In this document: piece after piece, positions 12,497-61,234 of the stretch
Layout of the letters: every line of letters starts with the position of its first letter
How positions within the stretch are numbered: position 1 is the first letter of the stretch
NCBI RefSeq assembly: GCF_963921235.1
Contig: NC_086097.1
Span: 4,216,001 to 4,280,000 of the forward strand
Direction: 5' to 3'
Source of the DNA: Mobula hypostoma
Taxonomy: Eukaryota
DNA: 64,000 bases
The notes under the pieces: generated by a model
Told to the model about the DNA's origin: nothing
Seen by the model: the letters and a program-made list of their open reading frames with translations, nothing else
Databases searched by the model: none
Translations under genes and position numbers: made by a program

Positions 12497-13421
12497 CACC
12501 AGCCTCCGGATCCAGCACATTATCCTCTGCAACTTCCGCCACCTTCAACAGGACCCCACCACTAAGCACATCTTTCCCTCTCCACCCCTGTCTGCTTTCC
12601 GCAGGGATCGGTCCCTCCGCGACTTCCTGGTCCACACGTCCCTCGCCACGGATCTCCCACCCAGCACTTATCCCTGTAAGTGCAAGTGCTACACCTGTCC
12701 CTACACCTCCTCTCTTGCCACCATTCAGGGCGCCAAACAGTCCTTCCAGGTGAGGCAACACTTCACTTGTGAGTCTGTTGGGGTCATCTATTGCATCTGG
12801 TGCTCCTGGTGCGGCCTCCTCTACATCGGTGAAACCCGACGCAGATTGGGGGACCGCTTCGTCAAGCACCTCCGCTCCATCTGCCACAACAGACAGGATC
12901 TCCCAGTAGCCACCCACTTCAACTCTGCTTCCCTTTCCCATTCAGATATGTCCATACATGGCCTCCTCTACTGCCATGATGAGGCTAAACTCAGGTTGGA
13001 GGAGCAACACCTCATATACTGTCTAGGTAGTCTCCAGCCCCTTGGTATGAACATAGAATTCTCCAAGTTCCGGTAATTCCCTCCCCCTCCCTTCCTCTAT
13101 CCCTATGTCATTCTCCCCCCTCCCCCAGCTGCCTATCACCTCCCTCATGGTTCCGCCTCCTTCTACTACCCGTTGTGTTTTCCCCTATTCCTTCTTCACC
13201 TTTCCTGCCTATCACCTCCCTGCTTCCCTCCCCCACCCCTTTATCTTTCCCCTTACCGGTTTTTCACCTGGAACCTACCAGCCTTCTCCTTCCCACCCTC
13301 CCCCACCTTCTTTATAGGGCCTCTGCCCCTTCCCTCTACAGTCCTGACGAAGGGTTCTGGCCTGAAACATCGACCAATCTTTTCCACGGATGCTGCCCGA
13401 CCTGCTGAGTTCCTCCAGCGT
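12497..13421 (+). mobile_element. Penelope-like element 3' part (GIY-YIG endonuclease plus 3' UTR/pLTR)
   Basis: ORF 12750-13076 VIYCIWCSWCGLLYIGETRRRLGDRFVKH...PVATHFN...GMN is a PLE GIY-YIG domain with CxxC; pyrimidine-rich UTR with a hammerhead motif. Confidence 0.9.
13339..13376 (+). ncRNA. Minimal type-I hammerhead ribozyme motif, partly decayed
   Basis: cagtc CTGACGA agggttctggcct GAAA catc gacca. Confidence 0.65.
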
Positions 13422-14030
13422 GAGGTAAATTCTAGGTTGGCATTTATTTCAAGGGGAATAGAATATAAAAGCAAGAAGATAATGCTGAGCACTAGTCAGG
13501 CCGCTTTTGGAGTATTGTCAACAGTTTTGGGCCCCATATCTCAGAAAGGATGTGTTGGCATTGGAAAGAGTCCAGAGAAGGTTCAGAAGGATGATAATGG
13601 GAATGAAGGGGTTAAGATATGAGGAGCGTTTGGCAGGTTGGACCTGTACTCACTGGAATTTAGAAGAATGTGTGACGATCCCGCCAAAAGCTACCGAATG
13701 TTGAAAGAACTAGATAGAGTGGATGTGGAGAGGATGATTCCCACTGTGGTGGTATCCAGAACTAGAGGGCACAGCCTCAAAATTGATTTATTTAGCCAGA
13801 AAGTAGTCAATCTGTGGAATTCTCTGCCACAGACTGAGGTGGAGGCCAAGTCCGTTGGTATGTTTAAGATGGAAGTTGATTGTTTCCTGATCAGTCAGGA
13901 CATCAAAGGATATGGCAAGAAAGCAGGTGTACAGGGTTAAGTGGGATCTGGAATCAGCCATGATGGAATAGCGGAGCAGATTTGAAGGGCTGAATGGCCT
14001 AATTCTGCTGCTATGTGTTATGGTCTTATT
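13422..14030 (+). mobile_element. CR1 3' end
   Basis: EYCQQFWAPYLRKDVLALERVQRRF; tail gtgttatggtctta. Confidence 0.85.
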
Positions 14031-38860: not shown

Positions 38861-39468
38861 AGACTAATGTCATGGAGGTTGATGTGTAGAACAGAAATTG
38901 TGGAGAGGAAGAGAAAACATCATCTGTAGATTTCCCAGTACTGAGTTGGAGAAAGTTTGTGGTGCAATACTGGGTGTCAAGACAAGTAGTATGATATTTA
39001 AAAATAGTGGTGACTTGATGCTGCCAGTACATGTGGAAACTGATGTTGCTACATTCCTTGTGCATGATTTGAATTTATCTGTGCATCTCAGTTAAGAAAG
39101 TGCTATTTCTGCAGTAGAAGAGCTGAGACCTAAAGGAAAACTAATTGTTGAATGATTAATTTCTGATGTTCCTTTGCTGTTGTTTACTTAGACTAGTAAA
39201 GATGATGATTAACCCGAAATTGAGTTTTTAAAAAATTTCAATTCATCATCTAATTCAAATAACTAGACATGATTCTCGAAGCTTAATCCAATTTCCGTTA
39301 GGATGGAGGATGATTGCATCAGAAGCTAAGCACTTTATATCCATGAGAAACAATCTCCAACCAAGAAACAAACAGCAAACAATATGATAATGATAATTGA
39401 GTAAGGAAATCTACAAATAGTGCAATGGATAGGAGTTATTTTATCAAGGTAGATCTATTGTATTGTAA

Positions 39469-40005
39469 ATGCAAGAGATTCTGCTGATGCTGGAAATCTA
39501 GAGCATCACATACAAAATGCTGGAGAAACTCAGCAGGTTGGGCAGTATCTCTGGAAATGAATAAACAGTTGATATTGTGGGTCAACGTCCTTCATCAGGA
39601 CTGGAAAGGAAGGGGCTGGGTGGGAAGAAGCCAGAGTAAGGTGGTGGGGGGGGGGATGGGAAGGAGTACGATGGTAGGTGAGGCCAGGTATGTGGTTGAA
39701 GTAAGATGCTGGGAAGTGATAATCACAAAAGGCAAATAGCTGGAGAGGAAGGAATCTGATAGGAGAGGAGAGTGGGCCACAGGAGAAAGGGAAAGAGGAG
39801 AGGCACCAGGGGGAGATGATGGGCAGGTGGGGAGAAGAGGTAAGGGGCCAGAGTGGGGAGCAGAAAAAGAGGGAAGGGGAAAGGATAAAAAATATTACCA
39901 GAATGAGAATCAGTGTTCATGCCATCAGATTGGAGGCTGCCTAGAGATCATTTCCATAAATGGTGCCTGACCTTCTGAGTTCCTCCAGCATTTTGTGTGT
40001 CTTGC
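39469..40005 (-). mobile_element. Penelope-like inverted two-arm insertion with an 8-bp TSD
   Basis: tattgtaa at 39461-39468 and 40006-40013; long - arm plus a short + arm. Confidence 0.8.
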
Positions 40006-40219
40006 TATTGTAATCATATAAGTTATAGTGATAATTTTGGTTGTGTTTTAAAACTAATTGTTTAGACAAAGTATAGGCAGTAAATCAGTGACATTTTTAG
40101 TGCCATTTTAATATGTTTGGCCTTGTAAAGTATTTGTATGCCTAATTCTATGCATAAGAATTTGGAGCAATGATCACAGTGTCCAAGATGTTACCTTTAA
40201 TTGGAAATTTTGTTGTCAG

Positions 40220-43319: not shown

Positions 43320-44180
43320 TAAATGTAAGAGGTTTTGCAGAAGCTGGAAATCCAGAGAAACAGATACAAAATGCTAGATTCTGGTTAGGCAGCACTGTAG
43401 AGAGGAATAAACAGTCAAAGTTCAAAGTAAATTTATTATCAAAGTGCATATATGGCACCATATACAACCCTGAGATTTATTTTCTTGCGGGCATCATAGT
43501 AAATACAAGAACCACAATAGAATCAATGAGGCCACACCCAACAACCAATGTTAAACAAAACTGTGTAACTACAAAAGGAAAGAAAAAAAGAAATAGTAAT
43601 AACTAAATTAGCAATAAATACTGAGAACATGAGATGAAGAGTCCTTTAAAGTAAGTCCATCGGTTGTTCGGTTGGAGATCCTTCATCTGACCAGAAGGGG
43701 GAAGAAGATGGTGGAGGGAGGAAAAGATTACAAACTGGCAGGTGTGGGGGAAGGTGGGTGGGTGGGTAGGAGGAGAATGAAGTGAGAAGCTGGGAGGTGT
43801 AGGTGGAAGAAGCAATCTATTAAGAGAGGAGAGTACACCATGAGAGAAATGGAAAAAGGGAGGTGATAGACAGATATGGAGAAGACAAGAGGTAAGAGGG
43901 GTGCCAGAATGGGGAAGAGGAAAGAGAGAAAGTTGAGGGGAGAGAATTTACCAGAATCTTGAGAAATCATTGTTCCTGCCATCAGGTTGAAGGCTGTCCA
44001 GATGGAATATGGTTGCTCTCCCAAATTGAGAATGGCCTCATCATGGAAGTAGAGTTAGCCATGAAGTTAGAGATGTCAGAATGGAAACAATAAGCAGATT
44101 TAAAATGGGTGGTTACAAAGATATAATGCTTGTTTTGGCTGACTGAGCAAAGGTGCTTGATGAAGTGTTCGCCCCAATCT
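43320..44180 (-). mobile_element. Penelope-like fragment interrupted by a Rex/L2-like tail (about 43420-43660)
   Basis: gcagaagctggaaatccagag end and GIY-YIG C-terminal remnants. Confidence 0.65.
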
Positions 44181-44520
44181 ACAAGGAGTGATTGATAAGT
44201 TCGTAACCTAAGGTAGGAGGAATCAATTTTTGAAAACTTAGCACATTTATTTTTCAACATAGTCCCCCCCCCCCTACATTTACACACTTAGTCCAGCGGT
44301 AGTGGAGCATACGGATCTTGGACCTCCAGAAAGTGCCCACAGCAGCGGTGATTGATAAGTTTGTGGCCTAAGGTAGAAGGAGATGAGTTATACAGCTCTT
44401 GTTACATGCACGTGCAGTTCAACTCTTTGAGTGATTATGCAGAAAGCTTGAGGTTAATAACTCAACAGGGGTGATTGATAAGTTTGTGGCCTAAGGTAGA
44501 AGGAGATGAGTTATCAACTC
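44180..44520. mobile_element. Mariner/Tc1-like non-autonomous element remnant
   Basis: Begins ta-caaggagtgattgataagtt (mariner-like end); the same motif recurs directly at 44347 and 44470. Confidence 0.55.
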
Positions 44521-44816
44521 CCTCTTAATTTGGTTTAGAATATTATCCCTCAACTTTCCAAGTTAAAGGGAATGATTGTTTTGTTGAGAAAATTATACAT
44601 TATTCAAATAACAGAGGAGCCAGTTTATGGTGTTTTTATTGGTCTTTGAAGATAATTAATAATTATGTTATTGTTGACAACTTACCACATGGACATTGGC
44701 TTTGAAGATGCACAAGTAATTTAGTCCATTAACTATATACTTGGGACTTCATTAAAATACGTACCTCTACTATATCTACCTGTGCTTTAATATAATATAT
44801 AATACTTTATCTAGGA

Positions 44817-44900
44817 CAGGCATTTCCAACCTTTTTTATGCCATGGATCTCTACTATTAACTGATGGGTCCAGGAAACCCAGGCTAGGAACTCTCACTCT
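44817..44900. mobile_element. hAT-like MITE, decayed
   Basis: caggcatttccaacctttttatgccatgga...ccaggctaggaactct; a ctag-containing 8-mer on each side. Confidence 0.5.
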
Positions 44901-46102
44901 AGGAAACATCTATTTGAGGGAAATGCATAGTCACTCATCCATCAAATCTGATGAGTGTGAGAGAAGATGACAGAAATGTCACTACATTAAATATTTGATT
45001 TGTCCTTTAAACATGGACAATAAGACTTTTACAAAAAAATCGTTTTGATATATAAAACAAATTGTAAATGGGGCATAGTATTTCACCATACTAGAGATAT
45101 CCTAAGATGATGAAATATCAGCATTAATTTGTATTTAAATACAGAATAAATGGAAACATTCTCTCACTTTTATTCAGACAAAACTGAAGGTAGTTTTTCA
45201 AAATTTGTTCTTCACTTGTAGCTTTTATGCTTCTTAATGAGCTAACAATCTCTTGCTGATAGAGGCTTGATTGTTCTACTGAGTTGTTTCCCACCTGCTA
45301 ATAATCATTAGGTGGAATAATAATTAATTCTATCATCTATGAATTTTTGCCATGAGGATTGCTTTTGTAAGAGTCGCCAAAAATGTGTGTAACAAATTAT
45401 GATAGTTACATTTATTCTAAGTGCCTCAGTTTAGAAAACATTTTATTTGTTTTAATTGATATTAAAATAAACACTGTAAAGTTTTAAGAAAATTTATTGC
45501 TGACAAAATTGGGGAAAATGTTTTGGTGGACCTACACGCAATAGGATGAATACATTTTAAAACACATGGGTGTCCCTAAGATTTTCCTGGAAGGTGGTAG
45601 ATTTATTTCATGTAGAAGGCAGAGTAATTATTAATTTTATTTTCTGCCATAATCCAACTATGCCTAACTACAACAGATAAAAAGAATACACAGGTTATTG
45701 GAATTGTACACCTCTAAGTGTAAATCAGCCATGTCTTTTAAAGCTGTTAATGACTTAATCTGCTGTGCATTTGTAGAATTTTCCATTTTTATTTCAGATT
45801 ACTAGCCTTTGAGATTTTTTAAAAATGTATCTATCCGGTTGTAGCTTTTGATGGTGGGAATAGGTATGCAGTAGATAGAAACCAGGAGGAGCTAAACCTT
45901 CAAACCTGTTGTCCAATGGGCAGGTGGTCCTGGCTGGACCACAAGCAGAAACATGCCCAGTGATCTGTGTGTGTTTTACTAAGTGAATTTCAATCTGACT
46001 TTGTGCAAATAGGGAATATGATGAAACCCTAGAATATACTACAATGTGCATAATAAAGCATTGTGCTATTCATTCACAATTTGTTTTATTTTTCTTGTCC
46101 AG

Positions 46103-46250
46103 AGCTTGGTCAAGGAAAAAGTTGCTGGAACAGGCTAAGATTTCTTGACACCTGTGAATGTATCATGGAATTATTTTCAAAAGCCTTCTTCTGCAAATAT
46201 TTTTTCCTGCCTGTACTTGAACTTTCAAATGATCCTGTCCCTAATGTAAG
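46103..46250 (+). CDS. PPP4R4: PPP4R4 coding exon H (148 nt, phase 1 to 2)
   Basis: ttgtccag|AG CTT GGT ... GTA AG|gtgagt. Encodes (Q)LGQGKSCWNRLRFLDTCECIMELFSKAFFCKYFFLPVLELSNDPVPNV(R). Confidence 0.96.
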
Positions 46251-46384
46251 GTGAGTAGATCATTGATCTATAAATGTATTGCTTGGTTCCTCTTTTATTA
46301 AAACCATTTTAATTTTTGGAGAGCAGGAAAATTTAGGATAGTAAAAACTGCCATGAGATTACCAGGGTCTCTCTCCCCCCTATT

Positions 46385-46800
46385 TGAGACATTTACCGGG
46401 AGTGTTGTACACAAAGGATTTGAAGCATTGTTGAGGATGCCTACTACCCAACCCACACTCTCTTTGATCCACTACTATCAGGAAGGAAGTATGGGAGCAT
46501 CAGGGTGAGGATTGCCAGATTGCGTAACAGTTTCTTCTCTCAGGCTGTGAGACTAATGAATACCTGCCACCACTGAGGTCTTGTCGTGAGGACAGCACAC
46601 TGTTTACTGTTTACAGTTTATCTGTGCTGTGCACTGTATAGACTTTGAATTATATTTTATATTTTATTAACATTTTTGTTGTATGTGCTGTATATGATGT
46701 AATGCATGTTGTGTGGATGCATCATGAGCTGCAGGAAAGTTATTTCATTTGATTGTATATGTGTACAGTCAGAAGACAATGAATTTGAACTTAAACTTGA
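46385..46800 (+). mobile_element. Rex/L2-like LINE 3' end
   Basis: LFDPLLSGRKYGSIRVRIARLRNSFFSQAVRL; tgaatttgaacttaaacttga tail. Confidence 0.7.
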
Positions 46801-47034
46801 AGCTTATTGTCCATCTGCTCTGCTACAATGTTAGCATTTCCCTAGATGACTTAAATAATTAAAGTTCACTCCATCTGTTGAATATTTCCTTGATACATCT
46901 ATGTGAAACTTTTGTTATTCACAGCTAATTTGTGACTGGTAACTTTGAGCATCAAAATTATTAATATTAATGTGCAGCACAAATATTCACTCTAAGCTGA
47001 GATGATAAAAACAGAGTTTATGATATTAATGTGT

Positions 47035-47935
47035 CAAGAAACTTTTTTGTTTGTTTTATTTTTATTTTCAATTTTTTTCTTTTGTTTATTTTTTCTTTTT
47101 AAAATTCTTTTTCTTTTTCCAATATTTTCATTAATTTCTTTATAGAAGAATACAGAGTCCAAGAGAATACATATTATTAGACAACAGAAAAAAATAATAA
47201 TACCAGATACAGTATATTGAATCACATTAACAAACTCCTTACTCTATATTCATGTAGATTAGATTATATTAGAATATAAACAATTTTATTAAAAAAAAGA
47301 TCTACACCCACTATCAAAGTCGAAGCTGTTTGGAAAAAAAAGTAAAAAAGAACTTATCAGATAATAAAATATGCTATTAACCAACTTCTGTACTTTAACG
47401 AGAAGTCAAAGATTATGAAAATAATTTAAAAACGGTCCCCATAAATTTTGAAAAGCTTGATTAGATTCAGAAATTGAACAACGAATCTTTTCTAAATTTA
47501 GGCATGCCATAACATCCTGTAACCACTGAGCATAACTAGGCAGAACAGCATCCTTCCATTTAAACAAAAGTGCCCTCTTAGCCATAAGAGAGATAAAAGC
47601 CAGAATGTGCAAATCAGATGTCTTCCAACAATACCAAATAGGGCAGTCAAAGGATTAGGCTTAAAATTTACTTTAAAGAGTACAGAAGAAGTTTGAAATA
47701 CTTCCTTCCAATATTTTCCAAGACTTGGGCACGTCCAAAACATATGAATAAATGAAGCTTCTCCATTGCTACACCTATCACAGCAGGAAGATATATCCAT
47801 ATAAAAATGAGATGACTTATCCTTGGTCATATAAGCCTTATGAAGCACTTTAAATTGTAGAAGGGAATGACGAGCACATAACGATGAAGTATTAACCAGT
47901 TTAAAAATCTCATTCCAAGTTTCTTCAGAAATTGA
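47035..47935 (-). mobile_element. L1-type LINE 3' end (same family as 22480-26870)
   Basis: ORFs 47406-47848 (-) CDRCSNGEASFIHMFWTCPSLGKYWKEVF; A-rich tail. Confidence 0.85.
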
Positions 47936-49157
47936 AGAAGAAACTTTTTAAATAGATGCTTGCTTCTCTGGCTAGAATGGGTTTAATTTTTTAAAAAAAA
48001 CATTGTTTCTGTTCTTGCATTTATTCAAAATCAATAATTTAATTGATCATTGAATATTAATGCAACTGAATATGATTTCAACATCATCATGGACATAGTG
48101 TGCTGACTGTGAAAGCATTCTGATAACACAGAAATGCTTTGTTGGTTCAGTGTGATAGACTAAAATATATCCACAGATTCTACATCGGAATTTTACCAGT
48201 TGTGTTAAATGACATCTAGAAAACATTACTTTTTAATGAAACTACAGGAAGAAGCCTTTTTAAAAAAAAAGACAAAGCATGTAGTTTTACAGAAAATACT
48301 TTGAAATCAGAAATAACCAAAAAGTATGTGCTTGTAATGTGCTTTAACACAGCAGAAGGAAGTATGGATTTACAACCAATAAGGAATTTATTGTTTTAGA
48401 AAATATATTATTAAAACCAAAGTAGATATGCTGTTGGTTTTCTATTTTAGTTTATTGAAGAAAGATTTTCACTTTATTTTCATGATTTTCAAAACAGTAA
48501 AACTCCAATTATCTGTCAGCCCTGGAACTTCAGTGCTGAACTGGCAGATTTATATGGCAGACTAATACTCTTTGTCTTTTAGATGTTACACAAACAAATT
48601 TTCCACTGAACCAGTAGAGTCAGGTGCTAAGCCATCAATATTCCTGGACTACAGGATAATTTATTATTGGAGCTCTACTATGATGACACATCTTATTAGT
48701 AGTTTACAATAAAATAATTGTAAAAGCTATTGATTTGATATAGACTATAGAATGTGGGAATTGTTGGGCATTAGCACCAAAGTTCATCTTTAATTATTCA
48801 TCTGCATATTCTCTAAAGTCAGCTTGCTTACAAGATGAAAAAAAATTACTGCAGATATTAAGTACTTGGAAGAAGGTTTTAAGACACAGAATGCTGCAAA
48901 TATTCAGTGAAGAAACATCTCTCCATTCAGAGTCTATGCTTGCATCTGCAAGATGACAGACATAGTATTTGAAAACTGGAATGCTTCATAATCCAAGACC
49001 CAGAAAATAGTTTAGAGTGTTCGTAATAACTACCAAGTTTTTGCATTGGGAATGGGTATGTAGTAGGTGGAAAATCCAAGGAGCATGTCTTAAATTTTCA
49101 ATCCTGTGGTCCAATGGGCAGGTGTCCTAGCTGGACAAAAAGCAGAAACAATTCCAG

Positions 49158-50086
49158 CAATAAACACGAGAGGTTCTGCAGATGCTGGAAATCCAGAGCA
49201 ACATGCAAAAATGCTAGAGGAACTCAGCAGGTCAGGTGGCCTCTATGGAATTGAATGAATAGTCGACATATGGGTCTGAGACCCTTCATCAGGACCGGAA
49301 AGGAAGGGGGAAGAAGACAGAATGAGAAGGAGAAGGGAGGGGAAGGAGAACAAGTTAAAAAGTGATAGGTGAAGCCGGGTAGGTGGGGGAGGAAGTATGA
49401 AGTGAGAAGCTAGGAGGTGATAGCTCGAAAAGGTAAAGGGTTGGAGAGGAAGGAATCTGATATGACAGGGCAGTGGACCATGGAAGACAGGGAAGGGGAG
49501 GTGAAAGCCAGCTGAGGAGAAGAGGTAAGAAGCCAGAGTGGGGAAGGGGGAGGGGAAAAATTACCCAAAGGAAAAATTGATGTTCATGTCATTAGGTAGG
49601 AGGCCACCTAGATGGAATATGAGGTGTTGCTCCTCTAAACTGAGAGTGCCCTCATCATTGCTGTAGAAGAGGTCATGGACCGACATGTCAAAATGGAAAT
49701 GGAGATTGGAATTAAAATGGATGGCTACTCCAAAATCCTGCTTCTTGCTTCCTTTACCCAACCTTCTTATTATGGCATCTCCCCCTTCCTTTCAAGCCCT
49801 GATCAAGAGTCTTGGCCTGAAAAATCAACTGCATATCATTTCCATAGATGCTGCCTGACCTGCCAAGTTCCTCTAGCATTTTGTGGGTGTTGCACTTAAT
49901 TTCCAGCAGCTGCAGAACCTCTTGTGTTTATGCAGGAATTGATTCTGCTTTTTGCCCAGCCAGGACCACCTGCCCATTGGACCACAGGATTGAAGATTTA
50001 AGACATGATGAATGGTCTTGGCTTGAAACGTCAACTGTTTTTTCATCTCCATAGATGCTGCCTAACCTTGAGCATTTTGTGTGTGT
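49158..50086. mobile_element. Complex Penelope-like insertion: - arm, + arm, inverted flank copy, third short arm
   Basis: Bounded by aacaattccag (49147-49157) and aacacttccag (50087-50097); carries three decayed hammerhead motifs. Confidence 0.8.
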
Positions 50087-50124
50087 AACACTTCCAGTGA
50101 TCTGTGTATGTTTTTAAAAGGAGG

Positions 50125-51025
50125 GAGGTTGAAAATCTGGCAAGTGCTGCCATAACAACACCTCTTATCAAACGTCAGAAAGACCAAGGAGCTGATTATT
50201 GACTTCAGGAGGAGAATACTAGAGGTCCATGAACCAGTTCTCATTGGAGGATCAGAACTTTAAATTCTTCAGTGTTATTATTTTGGAATACCTGTCCTGT
50301 GCACAGCACTTAAATGCAATTGTGAAGAAAACACAGCAGCACCTCTACCTCCTTAGGAGTTTGCAAAGATTCAGTGTGACATCTAAAGCTTTAACCAACT
50401 CCTATGACGTGTGGTGAAGAGTATATTGACTGGCTGCATCGCAGCCTGGTATAGAAACACCGATATCCTTGAACAGAAAATCCTACAAAAAGAAGTGGAT
50501 ATGGCCCAGTCCATCATGGGTAAAGCAGATCTATACAGAGTGTTGTTGCAGGAAACTAGCATGCATCATTTGGGACACCCACCACCCAGGACATTCTTTC
50601 TTCTCAATGCTGCCATCAGGAAGAAGGTACAGGAGCCTTAGGACCTGCACCACCAGGTTCAGAAACAGTTATTTCCCCTCAACAATCAGGCTCCTGAACC
50701 AAGGGGGATAACTTCATTCAACTTCACTTGCCCTGTCACCGAGATATTTTCACAACCAATGGACTCACTTTCAAAGACTCTTCATCTCATGTTCTTGATA
50801 TTCATTGTTTATTTATTTGTTATTATTGTTTCTTTCTTTTTGCATCCGCACAGTTTGTTGTCTTTTGCACCCCAGTCGAATGCCCAGGTTGGTGCAGTAT
50901 TTCATTGATTCTAATACGATTCTACTTTGGATTTATTGAGTATGCCCACAAGAAAATGGATCTCAGGGTTGTATATGGTGACATATTGGAACTTTGATAA
51001 TAAATTTACTTTGAACTTTGAACTA
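50125..51025 (+). mobile_element. Rex/L2-like LINE 3' part, family C
   Basis: KTKELIIDFRR, SILTGCIAAWY and LPSGRRYRSLRTCTTRFRNSYFP; aataaatttactttgaactttgaac tail. Confidence 0.8.
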
Positions 51026-51807
51026 TGTGAATTTCAGTATAGCTTTGAGCTGTTATGGCTTCTTCCTTTGACAATAGCATGGGCAATTATTCATGGGGAT
51101 TAATACTCAATAATTTGTTTTGATGACTTTTGGGTTAAGTATGATTTTGAATTTTTATGTACATCAAGTAGCTAAATGACCACAAAAAATATACTATGCT
51201 ATTTATAAATTTATGGGACCAGCAACTGTGTATCACACTTGTTTGAAAGCACCCTATGTAAATACAGACTTATGTACGGGGTCTTTCTTTTTTGTTAAAT
51301 TTAAAATGGCTTCTTTTGTTCTGTTATACTGGGGAATGCTGAGAAAGTCTCTAACTAGATAACTGCTTGGGTTATTATAGATAGCAGGGTGCTATTAACC
51401 AATGGGTGGGATTTCCCCTAGAATTATACGAGGCAATATAATGGAACGTTACACTTAAAACTTTGCACGAATGTTCTCAAGTTCTTTCTTTGCTTTGACA
51501 TATAATGGTAACTGAGACCTCAGTAATTACATATCACATGACTGAACAGTTAACGTGAAACACAAATTATCTGTTGCAGCCGTTTAATGAAAGTGTCCGC
51601 CCACCATTCATTTTTAAACCCTTAAGACCTTGCAGTAGCAGCATGGGCTGAAGAACCATCTGATTATCCCCTCTGTTTAACTTTCCATTCTTTGCACAGA
51701 AAAGCAGTTAATTGTAGATCTCAACACAACAGAATACATACCCTGAGAAAATATTCATTTCTGTGACTGTTAGTTATGTTCATTATAAGACCTGTCAATT
51801 GGTGCCA

Positions 51808-52065
51808 TGGCGGCGTAGTGGTTAGTGTGACACTATTACAGCTCAGGATATTTCAGAGTGTGGAGTTCAATTCCGGTGCTGTCAGTGAGGAGTTAGTATG
51901 TCCTCTCTTTGGAATGCATGGGTTTCCTCCCAGTCCAAAGGCATACCAGTTAGTAGGTTAATTGATCATTGTAAATTGTCCTATGATAAGGTTAGAGTTA
52001 AATGGGTGGGTTGCTGGGCAGCTTGGCTTGTTTCGCACTGTATCTCTAAATAAAATAAAAATAAT
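51808..52065 (+). mobile_element. V-type SINE
   Basis: tggcggcgtagtggttag A box, gagttcaattcc B box and A-rich tail. Confidence 0.7.
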
Positions 52066-54635: not shown

Positions 54636-56710
54636 TTTTTTAATGCTAACTACAGATGTCTCTGCTTATTCTCATTATATAAAAGTTAATGTGACCTGCT
54701 ATTAATATGTAACTGGCTTACAATTACATTAAAGTGATTCTATTTCTATTATAAGACCGTAAGGCAAAAGACCTAGGAGAAGAATTAGGCCATTTGGCCC
54801 ATCAAGTTTGCTCCGCCATTCAATCATGACTGATCCTTTATCTTCTCCTCAGACGCACTCTCTGGCCTTCTCCCCATAATCTTTGATGCTGTGGCCAATC
54901 AAGAACCCATCAATCTCCACCTTAACTACACTTAATGACCTGGCCTCCATGGCTGCCACAAATTAATCATCCTCTGGCTAAAGAAATTTCTCTATATCTC
55001 TATTTTAAATGGATGCCCCCCTATTCTGAGGCTGCGCCCTCTTGTCTTAGACACTGCCATCATAGAAAAAATTCTTTCCACATCTACTCTGTCTAGGCCT
55101 TTCAACATTCGAAAAGTCTCAAGAGATTTCCCCCTCATCCTTCTAAATTCCAGCAAGTACAGGCCCAACTTCTCTGGAAATATCCTGCTTGCGTATACCC
55201 TATCTATACCCATCATCTTTTTGTATAGCTTTATCAAATCTTCCCTTAATCTTCTACACTTTAGGGCAGGTGTTTCTAAATGTTTTTATGTTACAGACCA
55301 CTACCATTAGTCGAGGGGCCTGTGGACCCAAGGTTGGGAACCCCTGCTCTGAGAAACAAAGTCCTAACCTATTCAACCTTCCTCTGTAACTCAGGTCCCC
55401 GAGTCCTGGCAGCATCCTGACTTCCCACTCGTCCTTCTCAGTTCCCGTGAGTACAGGACCTGAGCCATCAAATGTTCTTCATATGATAACCCTTTCTTTC
55501 CTGGAATCATTCTTGTGAACCTCCTCTGGCCCCTCTCCAATGCCAGCGTATCTTTTCTTAGATTTGGAGCCCAAACCTGTTCACAATACTCAAGGTGAGG
55601 CTCACCAGTGTCTTATAAAGCCTCAGCATCACATTCTTGCTCTTATATTCTAGAGCTGTTGAAATGAATGCTAACATTGCATTCACCTAACTCACCACTG
55701 AATGAACCTGCAAGTTAACCTTTAGGGTGTTCTGCATAAGGTCTGCCAAGTCACTTTGCATCTTAGATTTTTGGATTTTCTTCCCATTTAGAAAATAGTC
55801 TGCACATTTATTTCTTCTACTAAAGTGCAGAACCATGCAGTTTCTAATATTGTATTTCATTTGCCACTCTCTTGCCCATTCTCCTAATCTGACTAAATCC
55901 TTCTTCAGCCTTTCTGTTTCCTCAAAACTACCTGCCCCTCCACCAATCTTCGTCTCATCTGCAAACCTGGCAACAAAGCCATCTATTTCATCATCTAAGT
56001 CATAGATCTGTAGCATAAAAAGAAATTGTCCCAAGCATGCAGAACACCACTAGTCAGTAGCAGTCACCAGAAAAGGATCCTTTTATTCCCACCCACTACC
56101 AATCAGCCAATGCTCTTACACGTTCCTGTAATACCATGGGCTCTTAACTTGATAATGAGCCTCGTGTGTGGCACCTTGACAAAGACCTTCTGAAAATCTA
56201 AATATGTAATATGCACTACATCCCCTCTATCTATCCACCTTGTAATCAACTCAAAGAATTCCAACAGGTTCATCAGGCGAGATTTTCCCTGAAGGAAACC
56301 ATTCTGACTTTGTCCTATCTTGTCCTGTGTCACTAAGTACTCCATAACCTCATCCTTTACAATTGACGCCAACATCTTCCCAACCACTGAGGTCAGGATA
56401 ACTGGTCTATAATTTCCTTTCTGCTTCCACCCTTCTTTCTTAAAGAGTGGTGTGACATTTGCAATTTTCCAGTCCTCCAGAACCATGCCAGAGTCTAATG
56501 ATTCTTGAAAGATCATTGCTAATGCCTCCATAATCTCTACCGATACCTCTTTCAGAACCCTAATGAGCAGTTCATCTGGTCTGGTTGACTTATGCACCTT
56601 TAGGTCTTTCAGATTTTTTGAGAACGTTCTCCCTTGTAATAGTCTCCCTGGTTCACATCTTTATTGTTATGCTGTAGGCATCTCATTTAGCACCTCTGTA
56701 AGAACTATTT

Positions 56711-57902
56711 AGAAACATAGAAACATAGAAAATAGGTGCAGGAGTAGGCCATTCGGCCCTTCGAGCCTGCACCGCCATTTATTATGGTCATGGCTGATCA
56801 TCCAACTCAGAACCCCGCCCCAGCCTTCCCTCCATACCCCCTGACCCCTGTAGCCACAAGGGCCATACCTAACTCCCTCTTAAACATAGCCAATGAACTG
56901 GCCTCAACAGTTTCCTGTGGCAGAGAATTCCACAGATTCACCACTCTCTGTGTGAAGAAGTTTTTCCTAATCTCGGTCCTAAATGGCTTCCCCTCTATCC
57001 TCAAACTGTGACCCCTCGTTCTGGACTTCCCCAACATTGGGAACAATCTTCCTGCATCTAGCCTGTCCAATCCCTTTAGGATCTTATACGTTTCAATCAG
57101 ATCTCCCCTCAATCTTCTAAATTCCAACGAGTACAAGCCCAGTTCATCCAGTCTTTCTTCATATGAAAGTCCTGCCATCCCAGGAATCAATCTGGTGAAC
57201 GTTCTTTGTACTCCCTCTATGGCAAAGATGTCTTTCCTCAGATTAGGGGACCAAAACTGCACACAATACTCCAGGTGTGGTCTCACCAAGGCCTTGTACA
57301 ACTGCAGTAGTACCTTCCTGCTCCTGTACTCGAATCCTCTCACTATAAATGCCAGCATACCATTCACCTTTTTCACCGCCTGCTGTACCTGCATGCCCAC
57401 TTTCAATGACTGGTGCATAATGACACCCAGGTCTCGTTGCACCTCCCCTTTTCCTAATCGGCCACCATTCAGATAATAATCTGTTTTCCTATTTTTGCCA
57501 CCAAAGTGGATAACTTCACATTTATCCACATTAAATTGCATCTGCCATGAGTTTGCCCACTCACCCAACCTATCCAAGTCACTCTGCATCCTCTTAGCAT
57601 CCTCCTCACTGCTAACACTGCCACCCAGCTTCGTGTCATCCGCAAACTTGGAGATGCTGCATTTAATTCCCTCATCCAAGTCATTAATATATATTGTAAA
57701 CAACTGGGGTCCCAGCACTGAGCCTTGCGGTACCCCACTAGTCACCGCCTGCCATTCTGAAAAGGTCCCGTTTATTCCCGCTCTTTGCTTCCTGTCTGCT
57801 AACCAATTCTCCACCCACACCAATACCTTACCCCCAATACCGTGTGCTTTAAGTTTGCACACTAATCTCCTGTGTGGGACCTTGTCAAAAGCCTTTTGAA
57901 AG
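56711..57902 (-). mobile_element. Young 5'-truncated CR1 with an uninterrupted RT-to-stop frame
   Basis: ORF 56807-57862 (351 aa) has no stops; (TTTCTATG)n tail; ctattt at 56705-56710 and 57903-57908. Confidence 0.93.
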
Positions 57903-59300
57903 CTATTTGTTCTGCTTTCAGCCTCTTTGGGTTATTGTTGAAGATAAAGGATGATGTGGAATGTGTGCCACCCAATTAGCGGGAGGTTTTTCTTGGTGAG
58001 GGACAATAAGGTTGGTCTTGGGCTCCTGTTCGAAACGAGATGAAGAGAGAAGACACTAGGGAGAACTGGTCGTAGCATACAATCTGGTGGGAGACCAGTT
58101 TGTTCGAGGTGGATTGCGAGCGACGTTTGGAAGGTGGTGTGTGTTTTCACGTTGACCGAGGGCCCAGTGCATGAGTAACAGAAAAGTTCAAGATGAGATC
58201 CAACTTGAGCTGGCATTTATATCTCACACGTTTGACAGGGCTGGAGATTGTGTTCCCTAGACTTATGCAGCTGAGGAAACCAGAATGTTTCATAGTAAAT
58301 ACACTCACTTATCTTTCCTCACACCTTTCAATACCTAGCACACTGCTAGTGCTTTCCAAAGTGAAGACTGATGCTAAATACTCATTTAATTCAGGAGCCA
58401 TCTCCTTGTACCCCGTTATTATTTCTTTGGCCTCATTTGCTAGCGGTCCTGTATCTACTTTCATCTCTCTTTTATTTTTTATATATTTGAAAAAGCTTTT
58501 TATATCCACCTTGACATTGTTTGCTAGCTTGCTTTCATATTTCATCTTTTCCCTCCTAATGATACTTTTAGTTGCTTTCTGTAGGTTTTTAAAAGCTTCT
58601 CAACCCTCTATCTTCCTGCTAATTTTTGCTTTGTTGTATGCCCTCTCTTTTGCTTTAGCATTAGCTTTGACTTCCCTTGTTAGCCACAGTTGTATAATTT
58701 TGCCATTTGAGTATTTCGTGGTTTTAGGAATGCACCTATCCTGCACCTTACTCATTTTTCCCAGAAACACATGCTAATGCCACTCTGCTGCCGCCCTTGC
58801 TAGCAGCTACTTCCAATTTACTTTGGCCAAACCCTCTATCATTACACTATAATTTCCTTTACTCCACTGAAATACTGCTGAGTCAGACTTTACTTTCTCC
58901 CTATCAAATTTCAAGTTGAACTCAATCCTATTGTTATCACTGCCTCCCAAGGATGAAACTCCCTTATCGTCTCTGGTTCATTACATAACACCCAATCCAA
59001 TATAGCTGATCCTCTAGTAGGCTCAACAGCAAGCTGCTCTACAAACCATCTTTCTTGTAGGCATTCAACACATTCACTGTCTTGAGATCCATTAGCAACC
59101 TGATTTTCCCAATCTACCCGCATGTTAAAATTTCTCATGACTATCATAACATTGCCTCTTTGACACACCTTTTCTATTTCCTGTTATATCCTGTAGTCCA
59201 CAACCCTGCTGCTCCTTGTATATAACTGCCACCATGGTCCTTTTACCCTTACAACACGCTGGAGGAACTCAGCAGGTCGGGCAGCATCCGTGGAAATGAT

Positions 59301-59338
59301 GAGTTGATGTTTCAAGCCGGAACCCTTCGTCAGGACTG
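59301..59338 (-). ncRNA. Minimal hammerhead motif, decayed (left arm)
   Basis: The - strand reads cagtc CTGACGA agggttccggctt GAAA catc aactc. Confidence 0.55.
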
Positions 59339-59803
59339 TAGAGGGAAGGGGCAGAGGCCCTATAAAGAAGGTGGGGGGAGGGTGGGAAGGAGAAGGCTGG
59401 TAGGTTCCAGGTGAAAAACCAGTAAGGGGAAAGATAAAAGGGTGGGGGAGGGAAGCAGGGAGATGATAGGCAGGAAAGGTGAAGAAGGAATAGGGAAAAA
59501 CACAATGGGTAGTAGAAGGAGGCGGAACCATGAGGGAGGTGATAGGCAGCTGGGGGAGGGGCAGAGTGAAATAGGGATAGAGGAAGGGAGGGGGAGGGAA
59601 TTACCGGAAGTTGGAGAATTCGATGTTCATACCAAGGGGCTGTTGACTACCTGGACGGTATATGAGGTGTTGCTCTTCCAACCTGAGTTTAGCCTATCAC
59701 CTCCCTGCTTCCCCTGCCCCACCCCTTTATCTTTCCCCTTACCGGTTTTTCACCTGGAACCCACCAACCTTCTCCTTCCCACCCTCCCCCCACCTTCCCT
59801 CTA

Positions 59804-59841
59804 CAGTCCTGATGAAGGGTTCCGGCCCGAAACGTCGACTG
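59804..59841 (+). ncRNA. Minimal type-I hammerhead ribozyme with an intact core
   Basis: cagtc CTGATGA a GGG ttccgg CCC GAAA c GTC gactg: perfect 5-bp helix I, helix II present, palindromic ACGT in place of helix III. Confidence 0.85.
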
Positions 59842-61234
59842 ATCGTTTCCACGGATGCTGCCCGACCTGCTGAGTTCCTCCAGCGTGTTGTGAGTGTTGC
59901 TTTGATCCCAGCATCTGCAGAGTATTTTGTGTTCCTTTTACCCTTGCAGTTTGTTAACATGGCACAGGTAGCTATCCAGAAATTATTATCCTGAGGTCCT
60001 GCTTCTTAGCTTTCTGCTTAGCTGTCTAAATTTTCTTTTCAGGACCTCTCTGCTTTTCCCTCTTATGTCATTGGTACCATTATGTGCTAAGACATCTGGT
60101 TGCTCCCCCTTCCCACCAAAATGCTGTGGATATGACCAGCGATGTCCTTTACTGTGCACCTAGGAGGCAAAATACCATCTGGGTGTCCCATTCATATCCA
60201 TAGAATCTCCTGTCTGTTCCTCTGACTATTGAGTCGCCTATCACTACCGTTTTCCTCTTCCCCCTCTTCCTTTCCGGACCACAAACCTGTGCTCAGTGCC
60301 AGTAACCTGGTCTCCATGACATTCCCCTGGGCAGTCATCCACCACACAGTATCCATAACGGTATATTTATTATTGAGGGAATGGCCACAGGGTGCTCAGT
60401 GCTAATTGCCTATTCACCATCCTACTTCTTCTTCTGACACACACCCAGCTACCCGCCTCCTGCAACTTAGGGGTGACTACTTCCCTGTAACTCTGATCAA
60501 TGATCTCTTTACTCTTCCGTGCATGCCAAAGGTCATCCAGTTGCTGCTCCAGGTCCCTAATACGGTCTTCAAGGAGCTGCAACTGGATGCATTTCATACA
60601 GATGTAGTTCCTTGGGACACACAGGGTCTCCCAGGACTCCAATATCCGATGTGAAGAACACACAATGGCCATTTAAACTATAAGTACCCCTAACCCAGTA
60701 AGAAATAAGGGAAACTTATCAGAAACTTATCCGGACAATTTACCCAGAGCTAATGCTTCTTTCGAGCTGATGACTCCTTTGAGCCAAAGCCTGCCACTCT
60801 CACCATTGGCCCACTCCAACAATGGCCGCTCTGCTTGTCTCCTCTGTACTTTTATTTATTCCTCTCTATGCTGCCCCCACCACTGACTGGGATGCTGGAA
60901 TGACACCGAACAGCTGCGAGCTCTCCTTTTAAACGAGTACCACTTCCTTCTAGAGGGTTGGGAAGCTTTTAAGAGTACTACCTCTTCTCTGTGCTGCTCT
61001 CGCTACTGATTGGGACATTGAAATGATACCGAATACTCGCAAAGCTCTCCTTTTAAACAAGCACTGATATATATGGAATATTATTTTTTTTATTTATGAG
61101 ACTTTTGAGTTGTGTTTTTGAATATTCCAAGGCTTTACAGCCCAATATTTGGGTTAAGTAGAGATTGGTGAACTGGATTGTTTGATTACTTTTGAGGTGA
61201 GGGAATAGTTGGGTGAAACATTTTTGCAAAGTTA

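What the first reader, a model, noticed from the sequence alone, without database searches (positions are those of the whole stretch)
49084..50097. Penelope insertion carrying an inverted copy of its own flanking DNA
Seen: between a near-perfect 11-bp TSD (aacaattccag 49147-49157 / aacacttccag 50087-50097) lie four parts. These are a - strand PLE arm, a + strand PLE arm with a full 3' end, an inverted copy of about 75 nt of the left flank (49933-50007 vs 49084-49157), and a third PLE piece starting right at the hammerhead core (tgatga, 50006). The paralogous empty site at 45895-45978 shows the pre-insertion sequence. Inference: during integration, synthesis folded back or switched template onto the target DNA and then returned to element RNA. 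The result is a palindrome of about 900 bp and a record of the poorly understood PLE integration mechanism. The PLE arms look more diverged than the flank copies, so two events or gene conversion are also possible.
Basis: partly seen in the sequence, partly recalled or inferred. Interest (0 to 1): 0.7.

Follow-up and report, generated by a model that had tools for sequence, protein, structure and literature searches.

The report
Penelope insertion copying its own flank
An old jumping-gene insertion in an intron carries a backwards copy of its own end plus 75 bases of the neighbouring DNA, most likely because the newly made DNA folded back and copied itself while inserting; this kind of slip is known from other jumping genes.

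Summary
The anatomy is real. Between an 11-bp target-site duplication lie a minus-strand Penelope-like (PLE) 3' end (A), a plus-strand 3' end (B), an inverted 75-nt flank copy and a short third piece (C). Contigs of two organisms bridge the B/flank-copy/C joins, and the flank is single-copy in three, so it is not PLE consensus.

Reinterpretation: A (with the ~42-nt tail) plus C (tail-less) is the ordinary head-to-head PLE insertion, seen at 3 of 9 PLE loci here. Only B plus the flank copy is extra: a DNA-templated copy of this locus's own left junction. Best reading (0.6): A's cDNA snapped back during integration and read through the primer junction into target DNA. Main rival (0.27): a later replication template switch. 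Divergence does not settle the timing (arms 23/129 vs flank 5/74, p=0.034; p=0.14 with a wider CpG mask).

It is an inverted repeat with ~250-bp arms and a ~430-bp spacer, not a 900-bp palindrome. Similar foldbacks are published for L1 and R2; my searches found none for a PLE. This scan noted fold-back palindromes before on other DNA. New variant of a known kind; one fossil example.

The parts
49036..49146 (.). Left flank, single-copy intronic DNA; 49084-49146 is the part copied into the insertion
   Evidence: Matches paralog 45843-45949; single-copy depth in organisms A, B, C
49147..49157 (.). Left copy of the 11-bp target-site duplication
   Evidence: 10/11 identical to 50087-50097
49158..49747 (-). 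Arm A: 5'-truncated PLE 3' end with the long (tailed) terminus at 49158-49160; distal part encodes the decayed C-terminus of the endonuclease region
   Evidence: tblastn of the window's PLE ORF 12489-13073 hits 49782-49576, E 2e-15; that ORF has a sub-threshold Pfam GIY-YIG hit, E 0.0024; >1,000 contigs have loose ends at 49160; distal end from alignment
49738..49747 (.). A/B junction; can be read as antisense or sense element, giving a possible 4-nt microhomology to about 49351-49355 (register uncertain in C/T-rich sequence)
   Evidence: inferred
49748..49932 (+). Arm B: PLE 3' end with the tail, ending at the same base as arm A; inverted copy of about 49158-49350
   Evidence: 32 mismatches in 147 columns vs arm A
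49933..50007 (-). Inverted copy of the left flank plus TSD (49084-49157)
   Evidence: 5 mismatches and 1 gap; three changes on each copy when polarised with the paralog
50006..50086 (+). Arm C: short PLE piece with an 11-nt internal loss, ending at the tail-less terminus; 2-nt overlap with the flank copy and 7/11 imperfect likeness before it
   Evidence: 7/11 match, p 0.01, chosen after looking
50087..50097 (.). Right copy of the target-site duplication
   Evidence: right flank 50087-50114 matches paralog 45950-45977 at 24/28
45843..46006 (+). Older local paralog of the target region, without the insertion
59239..59945 (.). Control: ordinary head-to-head PLE insertion, short end left, long end right, TSD of about 12 bp, no flank copy
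39455..40014 (.). Control: ordinary head-to-head PLE insertion, long end left, short end right, 10-bp TSD (9/10), no flank copy

Best explanation
One integration event with a fold-back. (1, inferred) The PLE endonuclease cut both strands 11 nt apart. (2, inferred) Both 3' ends primed reverse transcription on element RNA: the left end at the tailed start site (arm A, about 590 nt) and the right end at the tail-less site (arm C). (3, template shown; timing inferred) The end of A's cDNA paired back on its own strand about 385 nt upstream and DNA-templated synthesis copied about 190 nt of A, crossed the primer junction and the 11-nt overhang, and displaced 63 nt of upstream target DNA. That gave B plus the inverted flank. 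The pairing was seeded either by a ~4-nt microhomology or by first copying into a longer right-hand cDNA; the two cannot be told apart. (4, inferred) The strand came off and joined C's cDNA at a 2-nt microhomology inside a 7/11 imperfect match; fill-in made the TSD. Shown: the anatomy, the local origin of the flank copy, the two kinds of element end. The product is a neutral fossil with no sign of function.
For: B plus the flank copy is one continuous inverted copy of the left junction, with the element ending at the same base. The flank is single-copy, so no RNA of the family could supply it. A single TSD encloses everything. One long and one short end at all 3 head-to-head, TSD-flanked loci found among 9 PLE loci in the window; only this one has a flank copy. 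A lizard PLE protein cuts and extends both strands and starts at two sites that define the tail (PMC11167929). A and B share no decayed state at 5 family CpG sites (columns 98, 103, 108, 111, 210), so little decay preceded any copying at those sites. Only 5 of 16 derived states of B are shared in the way a late switch predicts (95% interval 0.11-0.59). Flank divergence to organism C, which has the left junction, is 67/666 and does not differ from 5/74 (p 0.53). cDNA snap-back is documented for R2 (PMC11371274) and 52-220-bp foldbacks for L1 (PMC10191854).
Against: Flank copies are closer (5/74) than the arms (23/129 with a CpG mask taken only from other copies, p 0.034; 32/147 unmasked, p 0.004). 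One event predicts equal divergence; the gap closes only with a wider mask that partly uses A and B themselves (14/98, p 0.14). A-B mismatches cluster in the inner part (permutation p 0.010 unmasked, 0 of 8 control pairs below 0.25; p 0.073 masked), as a later switch or partial conversion predicts. Four of the 5 CpG sites lie in that inner part, so they say little about the outer copy. B is hardly closer to A (32/147) than to other old copies (35-39/147; A to one of them 31/146). No relative with A+C alone or an empty site was seen, so timing is untested. The junction microhomologies are short and were picked after looking.
Confidence: 0.6

Rival explanations
1. Two steps. An ordinary head-to-head insertion (A plus one ~140-nt tail-less right arm) came first. 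Later, during replication, the nascent strand in the right arm paired with arm A on its own strand, copied A's tail and 75 nt of flank, and returned to the right arm further back, duplicating part of it as C.
For: A long inverted repeat is a ready seed, and intrastrand template switches are described as giving inverted plus direct repeats in one step (PMC10710096). It predicts inner B unlike A and outer B like A, which is seen (21/66 vs 11/81; change-point p 0.010). B and C share the same decayed state at 3 of 4 inner CpG sites. Flank copies are the least diverged pair.
Against: It also predicts inner B close to C, but they differ at 6/30 masked sites, no better than outer 4/33 (p 0.50) and above the flank's 5/74 (p 0.074). 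None of B's inner non-CpG changes is shared with C. Outer A-B (11/83) is not significantly below A-C (8/32, p 0.16). If it happened soon after insertion it cannot be told from the best explanation.
Confidence: 0.27
2. RNA route. Arm A was already in place; a read-through transcript (element 3' end plus 75 nt of flank) was reverse transcribed by a template jump from C's cDNA and reinserted at the same spot, a local 3' transduction.
For: B, flank copy and C read as a partial tandem with a host-DNA spacer, and rotifer Pen1 elements have captured host spacers (PMC3846280). An L1 case of co-inserted nearby pre-mRNA is reported.
Against: It needs a second insertion at the first one's end with no second TSD (one search finds one TSD at the ends; I did not search inside for others beyond the repeat lists). 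No A-tract at the end of the flank copy.
Confidence: 0.07
3. B came from an unrelated element copy or subfamily, and the likeness of the outer arms and flank copies was made or kept by gene conversion between the inverted arms.
For: Inner A-B divergence equals that to unrelated copies. The two flank copies share one base inside the TSD that the right TSD copy lacks, and 6 bases that the paralog lacks.
Against: Conversion can polish a flank copy but cannot create it. A, B and C share non-majority bases at columns 96 and 172, and A and B at 160, 205 and 212. Each flank copy has three private changes, so no recent conversion.
Confidence: 0.06

Closest known systems
Head-to-head (inverted pLTR) insertions of endonuclease-bearing PLEs, with the 30-40-nt tail at one end (PMC8557442, PMC3846280, PMC11167929)
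   Same: 5'-truncated arms facing outward, short TSD, tail at one end only, two 3' termini about 42 nt apart, C-terminal GIY-YIG-like remnant.
   Different: A third arm and 75 nt of inverted target DNA sit between the arms. The passages I read describe inverted pLTRs, self-priming and captured host spacers, but not an inverted copy of the insertion's own flank.
L1 foldback inversion / inverted duplication at the target site (PMC10191854: 3 plus 1 cases, 0.3% and 0.1%, 52-220 bp; PMC11702581 Fig. S9C caption)
   Same: Short inverted copy of target-adjacent DNA made by DNA-templated synthesis during integration; one L1 case also had twin priming.
   Different: [quoted passage not shown] Here the copy runs back through an element 3' end, its TSD and the flank, between two primed ends. 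Different element class. I saw captions, not the figures.
R2/PRINT snap-back junctions (PMC11371274)
   Same: The cDNA 3' end primes synthesis on its own cDNA or, less often, on nearby target DNA before joining.
   Different: Engineered insertions in human cells with one primed end and no PLE tail; here a natural germline fossil.
Replication template-switch mutations (PMC10710096)
   Same: An intrastrand switch and return gives inverted plus direct repeats.
   Different: Described there as short, hairpin-sized events; here about 265 nt copied across a ~385-nt loop and tied to a retroelement junction.

Membership tests
Endonuclease-bearing PLE | C-terminal GIY-YIG endonuclease | tested here: inconclusive
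   Window copy 12489-13073 hits Pfam GIY-YIG at 18.6 bits, cut-off 22.6, E 0.0024; arm A matches that ORF's C-terminus at E 2e-15.
Endonuclease-bearing PLE | Telomerase-related reverse transcriptase | not tested
   The arms are 3' fragments; I did not look for or classify a PLE RT, so the clade (Penelope/Poseidon or Neptune) is not assigned.
Endonuclease-bearing PLE | Inverted or tandem pLTR arrangement with short TSD | tested here: met
   3 of 9 loci are head-to-head with TSDs of 10-12 bp.
Endonuclease-bearing PLE | Optional 30-40-nt 3' tail at one end | tested here: met
   Two end classes, alignment columns about 172-180 and 213-220; one of each at all 3 head-to-head loci. Loose ends at 49160 support the long end; those at 49885-49893 may partly reflect B's own mismatches.
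Endonuclease-bearing PLE | Minimal hammerhead ribozyme in the pLTR | tested here: inconclusive
   The best-kept copy folds into two stems around the core motif, z -1.72, 12 of 200 shuffles as good; Rfam gave no hammerhead hit; minimal forms lacking helix III are reported for PLEs (PMC6155905). Copies in A, B, C are decayed.
Retrotransposition-linked foldback / snap-back | Inverted copy of DNA adjoining the same insertion, inside one TSD | tested here: met
Retrotransposition-linked foldback / snap-back | Made during the integration event | tested here: inconclusive
   Divergence tests point both ways; no intermediate allele seen.
Retrotransposition-linked foldback / snap-back | Microhomology at the fold-back and rejoining points | tested here: inconclusive
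   Possible 4 nt at A/B; 2 nt exact within 7/11 at flank copy/C; short and old.

The most novel reading that the evidence does not exclude
PLE inverted arms arise by two routes that can act in one insertion: RNA-templated priming from the second nick (tail-less arm) and DNA-templated self-copying of the first cDNA by the element's own reverse transcriptase, with strand displacement through the primer junction. Then many ordinary tailed inverted arms are snap-back products that stopped at the junction, and flank read-through copies like this one would be a countable minority genome-wide.
Probability: 0.25. Interest if true: 0.6.

Novelty: new variant of a known kind. Interest (0 to 1): 0.36.

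Why it matters
The steps after first-strand synthesis in PLE integration are stated to be unvalidated (PMC11167929), and inverted arms have been put down to self-priming (PMC3846280). An arm that reads through into unique flank must have had a template from this very locus, so such loci separate DNA-templated from RNA-templated arms. The family is very abundant here (about 99,000 contigs of one run were laid on the stretch, which also holds other repeats), so a genome-wide count is feasible. Alone, this locus is one decayed intronic example of a slip already published for L1 and R2.

Tried and rejected
Flank segment as part of the element or of another repeat: rejected (single-copy depth; only this locus and one paralog in the window). 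Assembly artefact: rejected (arms 82% alike; joins bridged in public contigs). Arm C as a ribozyme cleavage product: not supported, since it starts about 26 nt before the expected cut (recalled chemistry). Structured RNA gene: Rfam gave 4 sub-threshold chance-level hits in 44000-52000 and 1 in 59650-59960. Genome-wide screen: not possible, no genome is held. More family copies: a 21-nt window motif found 0 matches in metagenome and viral contigs. Orthologous empty site: not seen; organisms A, B and C all carry the left junction, organism D has no cover on the flank, and the tables were cut (3,238 joints and 286 variants not shown). Organism C has extra depth in bin 49052-49120 that would fit one more single-copy contig over 49084-49120 (implied depth 11.7); this may be its flank copy or the paralog, so I do not count it. 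The inner columns of copy c39947 are not element sequence, so only its outer comparison was used. Columns 23-68 of the alignment (C/T-rich) were left out of all divergence counts. Literature: 10 searches showed no PLE case with an inverted copy of its own flank; the library lacks most subscription papers, including older Penelope work, so absence is weak.

Full report
Setting. No genome is held for this window. The window is rich in decayed retroelements; from recall, not from a call, the repeats look like those of a cartilaginous fish. An exon at 46103-46250 encodes a HEAT-repeat peptide resembling phosphatase 2A scaffold-type proteins (the name PPP4R4 is recalled), so the locus is probably intronic.

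Observation. The TSD is 10/11 identical. The inverted repeat 49084-49330 / 50007-49762 has 206 matches, 37 mismatches and 7 gap columns, with 431 bp between the alignable arms. The flank copy differs from the flank at 5 sites plus 1 gap; polarised with the paralog, each copy has three private changes. The paralog 45843-45977 joins both flanks without a break, which fixes the insertion point. It is an older duplicate and lacks 6 bases where the inverted copy ends.

Public contigs (4 of 18 listed runs laid). In X1, 1,212 contigs have loose ends at 49160 with agreement 0.38, marking the family's long 3' end. X1 holds 48500-49189 (0 differences), 49619-49862 (0) and 49902-50058 (4). X5 (organism B) holds 48500-49187 and 49903-50203 (6 differences). 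X9 (organism C) holds 48500-49198 with 67 differences. X1 may be the source sample. No empty orthologue appeared, and the tables were cut.

What the parts are. Arm A's distal part matches the C-terminus of a window ORF with a sub-threshold GIY-YIG hit. Aligned copies end in two classes about 42 nt apart: A and B long, C short. Of 9 PLE loci examined, 3 are head-to-head inside a TSD (39455-40014, this one, 59239-59945); each has one long and one short end, and only this one has an inverted flank copy. This fits the published tail, which lies between two reverse-transcription start sites of a protein that cuts and extends both strands (PMC11167929; I read parts 1-2 of 4: abstract, main text, start of methods), and the typical PLE layout (PMC8557442, PMC3846280; passages). 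So A plus C is an ordinary insertion, and the anomaly is B plus the flank copy, a single inverted copy of the left junction.

Mechanism. The template for B plus flank must have been this locus. The simplest path is snap-back of A's cDNA, read-through across the primer junction with 63 nt of strand displacement, then joining to C's cDNA (0.6). The A/B join allows a ~4-nt microhomology, with uncertain register. The flank copy/C join has 2 exact bases within a 7/11 match (p 0.01, post hoc).

Timing, results for and against. Unmasked, arms differ at 32/147 and flank copies at 5/74 (p 0.004). Masking CpGs seen in other copies gives 23/129 (p 0.034). A wider, partly circular mask gives 14/98 (p 0.14). 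A-B mismatches cluster inward (p 0.010 unmasked, with none of 8 control pairs below 0.25; p 0.073 masked). That favours a later replication switch (0.27). Against it, inner B is not close to C (6/30 vs outer 4/33, p 0.50), and only 5 of 16 of B's derived states are shared as that model predicts (interval 0.11-0.59). A and B share no decayed state at 5 family CpGs, though 4 of these are inner sites. Arms of an ordinary single insertion in the window differ at 13/58 (39.4-40.0 kb) and 7/93 (59.2-59.9 kb), so arm divergence of this size does not itself imply two events. The flank's divergence to organism C, 67/666, is compatible with 5/74 (p 0.53). The reference set is only 10 other window copies, so all of these tests are weak. 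The data fit copying at insertion or in roughly the first half of the element's age.

The hammerhead. C starts at the core motif, but the expected cut lies about 26 nt on (recalled chemistry; fold). Rfam does not detect it. I see no role for it in this junction.

Known systems. L1 foldback inversions of 52-220 bp occur in 3 plus 1 somatic insertions (PMC10191854, passages and section 11; its preprint, one passage). PMC11702581 describes inverted duplications and templated inserts beside L1 (passages and one supplement part). R2 transgene insertions show snap-back on cDNA or nearby target DNA (PMC11371274, 4 passages). Template switching in replication makes inverted plus direct repeats (PMC10710096, passages). 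PMC6155905 was read in passages. Ten searches showed no PLE case; supplements of the PLE papers were not read and could hold one. Two earlier notes of this scan describe fold-back palindromes on other DNA, one of them in a PLE; I did not check them.

Verdict. Real, well-formed and not an artefact. It works like a retrotransposition snap-back; membership of that class rests on timing, which is inconclusive. New variant of a known kind, interest 0.36: a clean single fossil that suggests a cheap genome-wide test of how PLE inverted arms form.

Noticed in passing
window:46103-46250: Intact-looking + strand exon (acceptor, donor, 48 open codons) encoding a HEAT-repeat peptide like phosphatase 2A scaffold-type proteins; recalled as PPP4R4. 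No neighbouring exon of the gene was recognised in 40-56 kb by my simple scan.
   Followed up: partly
window:49084-50007: If transcribed in a pre-mRNA, the inverted repeat folds into a long double-stranded stem, a possible RNA-editing substrate; no expression data were examined.
   Followed up: no
window:49085-49090: Six bases present in both flank copies but absent from the paralog lie exactly where the inverted copy ends and partly resemble the element sequence at that join; could be a paralog deletion or a conversion mark.
   Followed up: partly
window:59239-59945 and 12977-13428: Well-kept head-to-head PLE insertion; its left arm is 94% identical to the copy at 12977-13428, a younger subfamily.
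   Followed up: partly
window:63401-63446: PLE 3' tail present twice in tandem (23-nt repeat) at the end of a copy.
   Followed up: no
window:25650-26084 and 56707-57140: 435 bp at 97% identity between two distant LINE 3' ends: a young family or a recent duplication.
   Followed up: no
window:44180-44514: Three tandem copies of a 52-nt unit, two 96% alike, at the distal end of a PLE fragment.
   Followed up: no
window:52466-52952: Internal inverted pair (107 bp, 75%) within the PLE coding remnant at 52.4-53.7 kb.
   Followed up: no
window:50115-51021: About 900 bp of other high-copy repeats interrupt the paralogous segment just right of the insertion.
   Followed up: partly
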